A stretch of 64,000 bases of DNA from Tubiluchus corallicola (lineage: Eukaryota > Animalia > Priapulida), in contig JAQGDQ010000534.1 in NCBI GenBank assembly GCA_030141605.1, positions 87,366 to 151,365 of the forward strand, in the 5' to 3' direction. Of this stretch, positions 1,425-53,506 are shown piece by piece. Positions within the stretch are counted from its first letter, which is position 1; every line of letters starts with the position of its first letter. The translations under genes and the position numbers were made by a program. Below the pieces are notes generated by a model that was not told where the DNA came from, did not search any database, and saw nothing but the letters and a program-made list of their open reading frames with translations.

Positions 1425-1571
1425 CTGAAGAAGTATCAGTTGGGGAGAGTAACTGCTTTAAATTTGGCGGCTTTGGGCTTCCGCTCTGATGAAGCCATCT
1501 TTGATTAATTTTCCAGCAATTATTGCCAGCAGGCTTGCATGGGTCACTTACACCCATTGAACCCGAAAGTG
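1425..1571 (-). CDS. Dscam: Dscam cytoplasmic exon (LSGSMGVSDPCKP...LLSPTDTSS)
   Basis: TTTTAG acceptor, CAG/GTAAGT donor, 147 nt open, phase 1 to 1. Confidence 0.65.
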
Positions 1572-52300: not shown

Positions 52301-53506
52301 AAAATATTTTTTTTGTTGAGAATTTTATCAAGTTAAAGTATAAACTTTCATATGTTTGTTTGTTTAAAATTACAATTGCAAATTACAACATTAAAATTAC
52401 ATACATTTGTTTCGTTTTATACAGTATTAAAACAATAGCTAAAAATTTTCAGAAGCAGCACCCCTTACTAATTTTAGCTATTCATGAGCCGCCACTTCTA
52501 TACATATTTTTATTCTGCTTTTGAGTTGCTTTGTTGAGCTGGTTATCTTATTGCCTTATATATTTTATATTACTGCTTTGCTGAATTGTTTAATACTTGT
52601 GCTACTTTTTTCTAGCTTTGTTACAATTATTTTGCTCATAAGTGAATAGCTCTTAGTATTTATTTTTAATCTTTGCTCACAGTATTGATGCTTGGATAGT
52701 TGAATTTTCTTGAGAGTAAATGTATCTTATAAAAAAAACAAGTTGTCTCTCTCTAAATGCTACTAAAACCATTTTTTTAATTTCGTCGCGGTAAGTTTTG
52801 CTGTAGATTTAAAGCACAAGAAAACCCTCCACTTACATTAAAAAAATTCGTCTCGAAATTTTATACCACCTACATACTACCTTTTCGTATGCATGTCAGC
52901 CTAGGTAGTACCGCACTGAGTACTATTAATACAGCGTAGGGATTAACCGAATAAAATAATCTATATTATCATTTTTGTATGCTGCTAAACTTAACAATCC
53001 ATTTATTCGTATCTTTGTTAGTGCCTGAAATAAGTTTTTAAAGGATAATAAACAATATCATTTGGATATATAATTACTTGGCAAAGAAATCCTAGTTTGT
53101 TTTTTGTAAGTCACCCCTACGGCAAAAATGGTTTGATCTCCCTGCTAGCTGTTAACCTGGCACACTGCCAAGCAGCAGCTAATAGTTTGCTAGCAGGTAT
53201 TTACAGTAGATGTGCACAGCAGAAGGTGACATTTAAATTTTAAATATTCCAACAATAGATACTGCATTACAAATAATGTCTGCACTGTTGAAACCGGGTA
53301 GAAACATCAAGTTCAGGTAATAAACAATGCTGGCAATTCCTCTAGTACCCGGGTACCCGATGGAAACACTAAAGAAAACATTCTGCAACAAAATTACCTT
53401 TACTTGACTCAGATAAATTTAATCGTTTTAGCAGAAGCCCAATATCTTCACCGTCTCTACAAAATGCGGTGCCTGTCAGTACAACTATGACAAAGTGGAA
53501 AAGCAT
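31191..53506 (-). CDS. ADAMTS7/12: ADAMTS7/12-like metalloprotease, N-terminal ~725 aa (signal peptide to end of Cys-rich domain), 13 exons; no spacer or later TSP1 exons found
   Basis: 13 GT-AG exons in phase (2176 nt); RLKR furin site, HEMGHNFGMRHD, Met-turn [42 protein letters not shown]. Confidence 0.93.
31356..31661. repeat. (CT)n microsatellite
   Basis: Seen directly. Confidence 0.97.
31881..32017 (-). CDS. ADAMTS7/12: ADAMTS exon 12, Cys-rich ([10 protein letters not shown]...VIDGTPC...GKCK)
   Basis: 137 nt, phase 1 to 0. Confidence 0.92.
32095..33003. repeat. 28-bp minisatellite (~32 units)
   Basis: Unit CTCACACATCACACTAATGGTGGGCACT. Confidence 0.95.
34351..34532 (-). CDS. ADAMTS7/12: ADAMTS exon 11, TSP1 end and Cys-rich start ([23 protein letters not shown]...SFREIQC)
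   Basis: Hand translation, 182 nt, phase 2 to 1. Confidence 0.92.
34600..35270. repeat. Degenerate telomere-like (CCCTAA/TCCTAA)n array
   Basis: Seen directly. Confidence 0.9.
35653..35798 (-). CDS. ADAMTS7/12: ADAMTS exon 10, TSP1 first part (WCFRGQC...[20 protein letters not shown]...CDNP)
   Basis: Hand translation, 146 nt, phase 0 to 2. Confidence 0.93.
35860..36400. repeat. (CAT/CAC)n low-complexity region with ~210-bp tandem duplication
   Basis: AAAGTCATCATCATGGTCGGTGTCATCATC occurs twice. Confidence 0.85.
36618..36861 (-). CDS. ADAMTS7/12: ADAMTS exon 9, disintegrin-like ([10 protein letters not shown]...AAEGTPCG)
   Basis: 244 nt, phase 2 to 0. Confidence 0.93.
37680..38547. repeat. 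31-bp minisatellite (~26 units) running into the ADAMTS exon 8 donor
   Basis: Unit ~TTTAGTGCCATTTGCAACATACTCTTAGAAC. Confidence 0.92.
38533..38694 (-). CDS. ADAMTS7/12: ADAMTS exon 8 (NFGMRHD...YLMS...[13 protein letters not shown])
   Basis: 162 nt, phase 2 to 2, third zinc His and Met-turn. Confidence 0.93.
39200..39616 (+). mobile_element. Short 3' remnant of a LINE homologous to the 21.3-23.0 kb element, between two (TC)n tracts
   Basis: Translates [35 protein letters not shown], aligning to FFGYAYFYSAREMSVEIHVMYFDVLRRKSVLSL of ORF 21369..21602. Confidence 0.7.
39617..39752. repeat. (TC)n microsatellite; followed by three 34-bp units at 39827-39932
   Basis: Seen directly. Confidence 0.95.
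39971..40090 (+). pseudogene. 5S rRNA-like sequence (degenerate)
   Basis: GACTATGGCC...GTGCTGTAGGCTT, full 5S length, CpG-decayed. Confidence 0.85.
39971..40533 (+). mobile_element. 5S rRNA-derived SINE (SINE3-like): 5S head 39971-40090, GC-rich body, (CCAA)n tail
   Basis: 120 nt matching 5S rRNA (AAGTTAAGCAA box A, GTACTTGGATGGGTGACC box C), no oligo-T terminator, many CpG transitions. Confidence 0.75.
40889..41038 (-). CDS. ADAMTS7/12: ADAMTS exon 7 (...[14 protein letters not shown]...INEDTGL...AHEMGH)
   Basis: 150 nt, phase 2 to 2, HEXXH. Confidence 0.95.
41265..41815 (-). mobile_element. RTE-clade LINE 3' fragment with (GAT)n tail
   Basis: ORF 41325..41657 GIRWP...[12 protein letters not shown]; (CAT)n on plus strand at its 3' end. 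Confidence 0.8.
42425..43468. repeat. Telomere-like TTAGG/TTAGGG array with 33-bp higher-order unit
   Basis: Unit GGGTTAGGTTAGGGTAGATTAGGGTTAGAGTTT; gives the 11-aa periodic ORF 42746..43087. Confidence 0.92.
43512..43636 (-). CDS. ADAMTS7/12: ADAMTS exon 6 (...[14 protein letters not shown]...[10 protein letters not shown])
   Basis: 125 nt, phase 0 to 2. Confidence 0.92.
43822..46230. repeat. 26-bp minisatellite (~90 units)
   Basis: Unit AAACAGCCCCAGTTACACAGAATCAC. Confidence 0.97.
46861..47425. repeat. 144-bp tandem repeat, ~4 units
   Basis: TTGTAATTACATAA at 46864, 47008, 47152, 47296. Confidence 0.92.
47468..47551 (-). CDS. ADAMTS7/12: ADAMTS exon 5 ([28 protein letters not shown])
   Basis: 84 nt, phase 0 to 0. 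Confidence 0.92.
47777..48000 (-). mobile_element. Kolobok-like MITE family A, partial
   Basis: One TIR and ~220 bp, then abuts the 53-bp repeat array. Confidence 0.75.
48000..48590. repeat. 51-53 bp tandem repeat (~11 units) containing the ADAMTS exon 4 end and donor
   Basis: Unit contains ACATACCATGTTCATTATAGTGAGAAC, the reverse complement of GTTCTCACTATAATGAACATG/GTATGT. Confidence 0.93.
48568..48782 (-). CDS. ADAMTS7/12: ADAMTS exon 4, furin site and start of catalytic domain ([19 protein letters not shown]...YVLTIMNM)
   Basis: 215 nt, phase 1 to 0. Confidence 0.92.
49059..49610 (-). mobile_element. Kolobok-like MITE family A (inverted)
   Basis: Same body and TIRs, TTAA flanks. Confidence 0.85.
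49724..49877 (-). CDS. ADAMTS7/12: ADAMTS exon 3, prodomain ([16 protein letters not shown]...HPHVVYKR...HCGVK)
   Basis: Hand translation, 154 nt, phase 0 to 1. Confidence 0.9.
50015..50395. mobile_element. hAT-like MITE with internal (AG)n
   Basis: TIR CAGGGCCTATTTCA / TGAAATAGGCCCTG; perfect 8-bp TSD CCAGTCAG. Confidence 0.85.
50404..50991. mobile_element. hAT-like MITE (CAGTGGTGGCTCG...CGAGCCGTCACTG); related fragments at 889-1375, 30916-31130, 52140-52497
   Basis: TIRs and flanks CCAGTCAG / CCAGTTCAG. Confidence 0.75.
51395..51725. repeat. ~170-bp direct duplication (GCGAGTTACTGT...), probably a MITE remnant
   Basis: Two near-identical units. Confidence 0.7.
51777..52123 (-). CDS. ADAMTS7/12: ADAMTS exon 2, prodomain (...TAPGFVIE...CHYHGNV...VALSTCYGL)
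   Basis: 347 nt, phase 1 to 0, ORF 51720..52115. Confidence 0.92.
53398..53506 (-). CDS. ADAMTS7/12: ADAMTS exon 1, ATG and signal peptide ([20 protein letters not shown]...)
   Basis: aacATG context, hydrophobic signal, AG/GTAAT donor phase 1; upstream acceptor at 53594 suggests a 5'UTR intron. Confidence 0.75.

What the first reader, a model, noticed from the sequence alone, without database searches (positions are those of the whole stretch)
1425..53506. In-frame ADAMTS-Dscam chimera: a candidate membrane-anchored ADAMTS protease-receptor
Seen: the ADAMTS7/12-like gene runs intact through 13 exons and stops at the Cys-rich/spacer boundary (…AGT G|GT, phase 1, 31191). The next coding exon on the same strand is Dscam FN2 (AG|TT CCA GAT, phase 1, 21034). 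Between them I find only LINEs and microsatellites, with no ADAMTS spacer/TSP1 exons and no Dscam Ig1-9/FN1 exons anywhere in the window. Splicing the two gives …NQSAGT-V-PDGVPLDVQV… and one open frame of at least 1516 aa over 29 exons: signal, pro, furin site, intact Zn protease, Dis, TSP1, Cys-rich, 3xFN3, Ig, 2xFN3, TM, proline-rich tail. Known: ADAMTS proteases are secreted with no TM segment, and Dscam recognition resides in its N-terminal Ig domains. Inference: exon shuffling may have replaced the Dscam recognition head with a protease, tethering ADAMTS activity to a signalling tail. Caveats: phase-1 introns at domain boundaries are common, so frame compatibility is weak evidence, and the junction lies in repeats where assemblers misjoin.
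Basis: partly seen in the sequence, partly recalled or inferred. Interest (0 to 1): 0.88.

Follow-up and report, generated by a model that had tools for sequence, protein, structure and literature searches.

The report
ADAMTS-Dscam join inside a repeat nest
In a likely priapulid worm, the front half of a secreted matrix-cutting protease gene (ADAMTS) runs in frame into the membrane-anchored back half of a nerve-cell receptor gene (Dscam), but the join lies in 10 kb of mobile repeats and is more likely an assembly error than a new hybrid gene, although no RNA or spanning read was available to decide.

Summary
Twenty-nine AG/GT exons on the minus strand give 1,527 codons without a stop: ADAMTS7/12-like signal to Cys-rich region, then Dscam FN2 to tail. 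No spacer, extra TSP1, FN1 or Ig1-9 exon lies in the window. The fusion itself is unproven. The junction intron is 10,156 nt, the largest of 28 (median 1,197), and about 97% repeats: a SINE-like piece, three truncated LINEs and two (CT)n tracts, with no target-site duplication found. Phases match by chance in 32% of random donor/acceptor pairs. In the deep DNA run, exon 13 is single-copy at 80% likeness, so no close parent ADAMTS is seen, while the Priapulus homologue keeps its spacer. Both halves evolve at about Priapulus rates. No usable RNA was found and no contig spans the nest. Against an artefact: there is no N gap, LINE1 differs 2-8% from its family, and a second contig resembles the exon-14 acceptor. 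Odds: misjoin about 0.5; real functional chimera about 0.25; real but non-functional or polymorphic rearrangement about 0.2. One long read or one RT-PCR would settle it.

The parts
31191..53506 (-). ADAMTS7/12-like 5' half, 13 exons, aa 1-725: signal-like N-terminus, pro-domain, furin-type site, Zn metalloprotease, disintegrin-like, TSP1, Cys-rich, first ~8 residues of the spacer
   Evidence: 43-57% identity to near full-length ADAMTS7/12-like hits
31191..31311 (-). ADAMTS exon 13, last ADAMTS exon, phase-1 donor
   Evidence: one contig at depth 157.5 in X1 and no second copy at 80% likeness
30920..31137 (.). SINE-like, very high-copy element; pieces also at 982-1062 and 50750-50828
28530..30903 (-). 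LINE1: 5'-truncated, broken RT remnant, roughly 5-27 copies by depth, 2-8% from other copies
28086..28519 (-). (CT)n tract 1; the same rare interruption at both ends
23595..28085 (-). LINE2: ORF1 remnant, endonuclease and RT in several broken frames; copy number not measured
22998..23594 (-). (CT)n tract 2, two halves of different style
21285..22997 (-). LINE3: 5'-truncated RT remnant, high copy (X1 depth 5,885-60,970 against 190), other copies 95-99% alike
20964..21034 (-). Dscam exon 14 (start of FN2), phase-1 acceptor
   Evidence: inside one X1 contig 19650-21278 at depth 190.6
1425..21034 (-). Dscam 3' half, 16 exons, aa 726-1527: FN2, FN3, FN4, Ig10, FN5, FN6, TM (hydrophobic windows starting at aa 1327-1338), partial cytoplasmic tail; 3' end not found in the window
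   Evidence: groups with Priapulus Dscam at 95/92 support

Best explanation
Two ordinary genes, an ADAMTS7/12-like protease and a Dscam receptor, were most likely joined by the genome assembler inside a 10 kb nest of LINEs and (CT)n tracts, so that the in-frame hybrid would exist only in the assembly. Shown: both exon sets are intact, both unique flanks are single-copy at diploid depth, and the sequence between them is almost all repeat. Inferred: the ADAMTS intron and the Dscam intron each carry a copy of one of these repeats in the same orientation, the path was switched there (LINE2, tract 2 or LINE3 are the open places), and the missing halves lie elsewhere in the genome. The frame survives because phase-1 introns are common in both genes.
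For: (1) The join is in the largest of 28 introns (10,156 nt against a median of 1,197 and a next largest of 3,831; log z 3.4). By my element boundaries it is 97% repeat. LINE remnants were found in 4 of 28 introns, and three LINE families together only here. (2) No target-site duplication in 8 of 8 flank pairs tested (best 9 nt, shuffle P 0.08). (3) Exon 13 has one contig at depth 157.5 and no second copy at 80% likeness, with diploid depth about 200 (haplotypes 105+98). A recent duplicate-then-fuse origin would leave a near-identical parent. (4) Priapulus ADAMTS7-like P0002 keeps spacer and TSP1. (5) No rate shift: at conserved columns, window-only against Priapulus-only changes are 18:17 (Dscam) and 32:28 (ADAMTS); 8 of 9 Dscam outgroups and 6 of 6 ADAMTS outgroups were not significant. 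(6) 0 of 150 FN3 hits had an ADAMTS protease match (one had TSP1 repeats only), and 0 of 32 ADAMTS hits matched the Dscam half. (7) Phase match by chance is 0.32. (8) GA-rich tracts are known low-coverage sites for HiFi reads (10.1101/2021.07.02.450803, passages); the platform used here is not on record.
Against: The window has no N and resolves kilobase tandem arrays. The ADAMTS gene is assembled in correct order through another (CT)n tract in intron 12. This points to long reads that could span 10 kb. LINE1 differs 2-8% from its family, and tract 1 carries the same rare interruption at both ends (2 occurrences in the window, both there), so neither looks like a switch point. The break keeps a whole protease module and starts at an FN3 boundary. 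A second X1 contig leaves the window sequence at 21049, near the exon-14 acceptor (anchored 11 of 17 further matches, P 0.015, but 12 of 30, P 0.38); it may be a second Dscam, that is, a surviving parent. The Dscam half has the longer branch in the tree (1.17 against 0.69 for Priapulus), and 1 of 9 outgroups gave P 0.013. A PY[AS]T tail motif seen in 13 of 16 Dscam tails has no exonic match in 1-6100. Missing target-site duplications and a missing parent fit a real repeat-mediated rearrangement equally well. Contig absence is not proof: the tool filters records.
Confidence: 0.5

Rival explanations
1. Real chimeric gene. The 10 kb intron is spliced out and a type-I membrane protein is made: the furin-activated ADAMTS protease sits on a stalk of five FN3 domains and one Ig domain, anchored by the Dscam transmembrane helix with a diverged tail. 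It would cut matrix or surface proteins next to the cell, like an ADAM sheddase, and would have lost both the spacer exosite and Dscam homophilic binding.
For: 1,527 codons open with canonical splice sites. Zn motif, furin-type site and TM are intact. A second individual (X3) differs at 9 substitutions plus 1 indel in 1,134 intron bases and at 0 in 366 exon bases (P 0.06-0.08; three of the substitutions were not placed by the tool and were counted as intronic). A possible second Dscam copy, a longer Dscam branch, the missing tail motif and a gap-free assembly also fit.
Against: No spliced RNA was seen. No close parent of exon 13, so the species would have given up its normal ADAMTS7/12 unless an old, more than 20% diverged paralogue exists. 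An old fusion must explain why the only three-LINE nest sits in exactly this intron (about 1 in 28). Intact exons and conserved sites are also expected if both genes are normal and misjoined. No fused relative among 182 proteins checked.
Confidence: 0.25
2. Real but recent rearrangement without a working new gene: an inversion or translocation between repeat copies in the two introns, carried on one haplotype of the sequenced animal or in part of the population, with the normal genes on the other haplotype.
For: It explains the repeat nest at the join, the lack of target-site duplications, single-copy flanks at diploid depth and normal rates as well as a misjoin does, and it needs no assembler error.
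Against: It needs a rare event that breaks two conserved genes in the animal that was sequenced. Nothing here shows the reciprocal product.
Confidence: 0.2
3. Two adjacent but separate truncated units: a short secreted ADAMTS that ends in intron 13, and a headless Dscam remnant.
For: Read-through of the exon 13 donor meets a stop at once. Shortened Dscams exist in chelicerates (PMC5775551, passages).
Against: No signal or first exon for the Dscam half was seen in the gap. Its 16 exons are intact and conserved. The described short Dscams keep N-terminal Ig domains.
Confidence: 0.05

Closest known systems
ADAMTS7/12-like proteases of protostomes (best hit Priapulus caudatus P0002; review PMC4448532)
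   Same: Domain order from signal to Cys-rich, Zn-binding motif, furin-type site; 51% identity to P0002 over aa 395-725.
   Different: Stops about 8 residues into the spacer; no further TSP1 repeats; followed in the assembly by a TM-bearing half. The review states that ADAMTSs lack transmembrane and cytoplasmic modules.
Classical Dscam (10 Ig, 6 FN3, Ig10 between FN4 and FN5; PMC5775551); best hit Priapulus P0001
   Same: FN2-FN3-FN4-Ig10-FN5-FN6-TM order; a juxtamembrane motif shared with P0262 and P0263; sister to P0001 in the tree.
   Different: Ig1-9 and FN1 are absent from the window; no exonic PY[AS]T tail motif in 1-6100; tail incomplete.
Chelicerate shortened Dscams (sDscam, mDscam; PMC5775551)
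   Same: Precedent for Dscam ectodomains that lose blocks of Ig and FN3 domains.
   Different: They keep N-terminal Ig domains and lose Ig10 and FN3-4, and the passages read mention no protease. The window keeps exactly the parts they drop.
ADAM sheddases (M12B, type-I membrane)
   Same: What the hybrid would work like if real: an M12B protease tethered by one TM helix with a cytoplasmic tail.
   Different: ADAMs have an EGF-like domain and, from recall, no TSP1; the anchor here would come from Dscam.

Membership tests
ADAMTS | Zn motif HEXXHXBG(N/S)BXHD with a downstream Met-turn | tested here: met
   Motif at aa 390-401; the Met is 23 residues after the third His against 14-20 in the review; P0002 has a similar spacing
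ADAMTS | Pro-domain with a furin-type site | tested here: met
   PF01562 E 1.6e-13; basic site at aa 235-238
ADAMTS | Signal peptide | tested here: inconclusive
   Hydrophobic N-terminus by eye; no 19-residue window above 2.0 there; no signal predictor available
ADAMTS | Disintegrin-like, central TSP1 and Cys-rich domains | tested here: met
   PF17771, PF00090, weak PF19236; control profile
ADAMTS | Spacer domain | tested here: not met
   Absent from the window (best E 4.4); the rest of the genome could not be searched
ADAMTS | No transmembrane segment (secreted) | tested here: inconclusive
   Not met by the joined model (TM), but the join is unproven
Dscam | FN2-4, Ig10, FN5-6, TM order | tested here: met
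Dscam | N-terminal Ig1-9 and FN1 | tested here: not met
   Only cross-hits to modelled exons in the window; genome not available
Dscam | Groups with Dscams, nearest the Priapulus gene | tested here: met
   95/92 support with P0001 among 21 rows; no non-Dscam outgroup in the tree and most rows are unnamed
Functional chimeric gene | Spliced transcript across the junction | not testable with these tools
   No RNA run with spliced cover of either half among the 6 of 13 runs laid
Functional chimeric gene | DNA continuity shown by single molecules or a second assembly | not testable with these tools
   All 13 runs are held as contigs; none laid spans the repeats
Functional chimeric gene | Parent genes retained or fusion shared with relatives | tested here: inconclusive
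   No second exon 13 at 80% likeness; an unexplained second contig at the exon-14 acceptor; 0 fused among 182 proteins

The most novel reading that the evidence does not exclude
A priapulid lineage has fused its ADAMTS7/12 protease module to the stalk, transmembrane helix and tail of a Dscam, making a cell-surface ADAMTS that cuts matrix at the membrane and may signal inward: an ADAM-like sheddase reinvented from a neural wiring receptor.
Probability: 0.25. Interest if true: 0.78.

Novelty: not a real feature. Interest (0 to 1): 0.3.

Why it matters
If real, it breaks a textbook line between secreted ADAMTS and membrane ADAM proteases (PMC4448532, passage). It would be a clean case of a new architecture made from two large conserved genes, with the likely cost of losing the normal ADAMTS7/12. 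My searches found no natural transmembrane ADAMTS in print (the single hit is an engineered ADAMTS13 preprint, listing and abstract start only) and, by title, no ADAMTS-Dscam fusion (20 of 61 and 5 of 5 listed). Unchecked notes of this scan describe membrane-anchored ADAMTS forms in sea urchins and a microbe, so anchoring alone may not be unique. If it is a misjoin, it is a useful warning: gap-free long-read assemblies can produce in-frame 'fusion genes' about a third of the time when a repeat joins two same-strand introns.

Tried and rejected
No whole genome is held, so tBLASTn for the missing halves and synteny could not be run. One search was in the wrong frame. X3 (share 0.34) looked like RNA but reads unspliced through two donors. 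X13 laid 0 records; X12 covered only repeats on the exon 13 stretch. Lack of cover there is no evidence of silence. A metagenome scan with exon 15 gave 2 weak unrelated loci out of 136 candidate stretches. Target-site duplications: none significant in 8 tests; some LINE clades make none (recalled), so this is weak. A free global alignment of the X1 loose end to the intron was not significant (P 0.35). A 1-nt deletion in exon 15 in X2 and X4 was rejected as a likely homopolymer error: all three X2 deletions lie in homopolymers, and X1 and X3 lack it. The ORF at 1143-980 was rejected as an exon. dN/dS was not run (no orthologous DNA). No fold was run: the joined model cannot be submitted, and single exons would not bear on the question. 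Protein searches cover 141-2000 aa or the best 150 of 965 hits, so a fused relative can have been missed. 'Dscam' with 'Priapulus' found 0 papers. Look-ups of earlier notes on this genome and on this fusion were empty. No supplements were read; none is known to bear on the claims.
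Full report
1. What is in the sequence. The window has no N and 36.7% GC; no whole genome is held. 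Guided by tblastn with relatives, I placed 29 exons on the minus strand from 53506 to 1425. All 28 introns are GT..AG and the chain translates to 1,527 residues without a stop. Exons 1-13 are ADAMTS7/12-like and exons 14-29 are Dscam FN2 to tail. Pfam on 12 single exons supports the order. The Zn motif fits the consensus in PMC4448532 (passages read), and one TM segment is predicted by hydropathy. Profiles of the spacer, the following TSP1 region, FN1 and Ig1-9 found no new exon among 3,342 six-frame peptides, while a control profile found exons 12 and 13. The break is about 8 residues into the spacer. The open frame near 1143-980 is a repeat. The gene's 3' end is not in hand.

2. Organism. 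Priapulus caudatus is the best hit for a Dscam exon (58%, the 1 hit among 11 candidates), an ADAMTS exon (54%, top of 32 hits, with other phyla close behind) and the neighbouring ANKMY2 (46%, clear margin). The Dscam half is sister to the Priapulus protein at 95/92; the ADAMTS tree leaves the two unresolved. A priapulid other than P. caudatus is an inference.

3. The junction. The intron is 10,156 nt; the median of 28 is 1,197 and the next largest is 3,831. In gene order it holds about 55 nt of unique DNA, a SINE-like element, LINE1, a (CT)n tract, LINE2, a second (CT)n tract, LINE3 and about 250 nt of unique DNA. By my boundaries that is 97% repeat. LINE remnants occur in 4 of 28 introns, and three families together only here. 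All three LINEs are 5'-truncated, and LINE2 and LINE3 begin directly at a (CT)n tract. No target-site duplication reached significance in 8 flank pairs, so the nest cannot be shown to be a set of simple insertions into an older fused intron. Phase agreement is weak evidence: 32% of 13x16 donor/acceptor pairs from these two genes match.

4. Sequencing runs. Thirteen runs were listed, all as contigs; I laid 6 of them in two calls. On the Dscam side one X1 contig covers 19650-21278 at depth 190.6 with no differences, and LINE3 is high-copy. On the ADAMTS side, at 80% likeness, exon 13 lies in one contig at depth 157.5. Two haplotypes at 105 and 98 nearby set diploid depth at about 200, and LINE1 has roughly 5-27 copies that differ by 2-8%. 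So both flanks are single-copy and diploid, and no close second copy of exon 13 was seen; the tool warns that filtered records can be missing. X3, another individual, runs unspliced through the donors of exons 13 and 15, so it behaves as DNA. It shows 9 substitutions and 1 indel in 1,134 intron bases and none in 366 exon bases (P 0.06-0.08; three substitutions were not placed and were counted as intronic). X13 laid nothing on the exon 13 stretch. No joint between exons 13 and 14 could be tested and no record spans the nest. One result points the other way: a second X1 contig fits at the exon-14 acceptor and departs at 21049. Its next letters resemble the intron weakly (11 of 17, P 0.015; 12 of 30, P 0.38). 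It may be a second Dscam.

5. Relatives and rates. None of the best 150 (of 965) FN3 hits carried an ADAMTS protease match; one had TSP1 repeats only. None of 32 ADAMTS hits matched the Dscam half. Priapulus P0002 continues normally into spacer and TSP1. At conserved columns neither half has changed more than its Priapulus counterpart (18:17 and 32:28; ANKMY2 19:32). Single-outgroup tests were not significant in 8 of 9 Dscam and 6 of 6 ADAMTS cases. Against this, the tree gives the Dscam half a longer branch (1.17 against 0.69). The tail keeps a juxtamembrane motif but has no exonic PY[AS]T motif in 1-6100; 13 of 16 Dscam tails show it in the part printed, 2 do not and 1 has no tail. The tail may continue beyond the window.

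6. Reading. Intact, normally conserved halves are expected under both a misjoin and a functional fusion, so they do not decide. Two facts do lean. First, the join falls in the one intron that is nearly all repeat, which an old fusion would do by chance about 1 time in 28. Second, a recent repeat-mediated fusion should leave a near-identical parent or break both conserved genes, and no parent of exon 13 is visible. That leaves a misjoin or a reciprocal rearrangement as the simpler accounts. The gap-free, array-resolving assembly, the diverged LINE1, the non-hybrid look of tract 1 and the possible second Dscam keep a true chimera alive. GA-rich DNA is a known HiFi low-coverage site (10.1101/2021.07.02.450803, passages), but the platform here is not on record. 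My odds: misjoin 0.5, functional chimera 0.25, real non-functional or polymorphic rearrangement 0.2, separate truncated genes 0.05.

7. Mechanism if real (inferred throughout). Splicing of the phase-1 intron would give a type-I membrane precursor; a furin-type cut would remove the pro-domain; the protease-disintegrin-TSP1-Cys-rich head would be held off the membrane by six Dscam domains. Without the spacer the substrate range would likely change (the ancillary domain specifies substrate binding, PMC4448532), and without Ig1-9 homophilic recognition would be lost. It would work like an ADAM sheddase while being a member of neither family in the strict sense.

8. Literature. ADAMTSs lack TM and cytoplasmic modules (PMC4448532, passages). 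Classical Dscam has 10 Ig and 6 FN3, and chelicerate short forms keep N-terminal Igs (PMC5775551, passages). Searches for a natural transmembrane ADAMTS and for an ADAMTS-Dscam fusion showed none in the listings seen; one search gave one engineered ADAMTS13 preprint (listing and abstract start only). Subscription papers are mostly outside the library. Three unchecked notes of this scan report membrane-anchored ADAMTS forms elsewhere; I did not test them, and they lower the uniqueness of anchoring alone.

9. Verdict. Observation confirmed; interpretation undecided and leaning to artefact. The novelty label follows the best explanation; if the join is real it would be a new variant of a known kind (exon-shuffled M12B protease). 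Interest 0.3, because the decisive test is cheap and the pay-off if true is high (0.78 at probability 0.25).

Noticed in passing
window 56170-57702 (-): Intronless ANKMY2 open frame (511 aa from the first Met) upstream of the ADAMTS; best hit Priapulus caudatus, 46% over the whole length and 73 bits above the next hit. With this points to a priapulid other than P. caudatus.
   Followed up: partly
window 21049, run X1: A second contig fits near the exon-14 acceptor and then runs on 255 or more unlike letters, while the main contig passes unbroken; the extra depth fits a match of about 40-60 nt. Possible second Dscam copy; unexplained.
   Followed up: partly
window 19971: A one-base deletion in a homopolymer of exon 15 in runs X2 and X4 but not in X1 or X3; a frameshift if real, more likely a read error.
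   Followed up: partly
window 28086-28519 and 22998-23610: Each (CT)n tract holds a short direct repeat around a CT-rich block, like a target-site duplication; tract 1 shares interruptions with the inverted tract at 31394-31664. LINE1 and LINE2 both end in (CT)n, which may mark a microsatellite-targeting or CT-tailed LINE family.
   Followed up: partly
window 34599-35274 and 42422-43468: Degenerate TTAGGG-like arrays inside two ADAMTS introns, in opposite orientations.
   Followed up: no
window 30950-31130: A short element with summed contig depth up to 503,039 against about 200 for unique DNA: a very abundant SINE-like family.
   Followed up: partly
run X12 on 30250-31345: Same species label as X1, yet its LINE1 contig has 68 other letters over about 600 and it holds 0.01 of the query words: possibly a different or cryptic species.
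   Followed up: no
window 43822-46231, 18438-19633, 32096-33003, 37678-38470: Kilobase minisatellite arrays (periods 26, 39, 28 and 31/62) in introns of both halves.
   Followed up: no
window 41328-41672 and 8272-8691: Two related fragments that look like retroelement remnants, one in each half (introns 6 and 24); they match each other but had no Pfam hit.
   Followed up: partly
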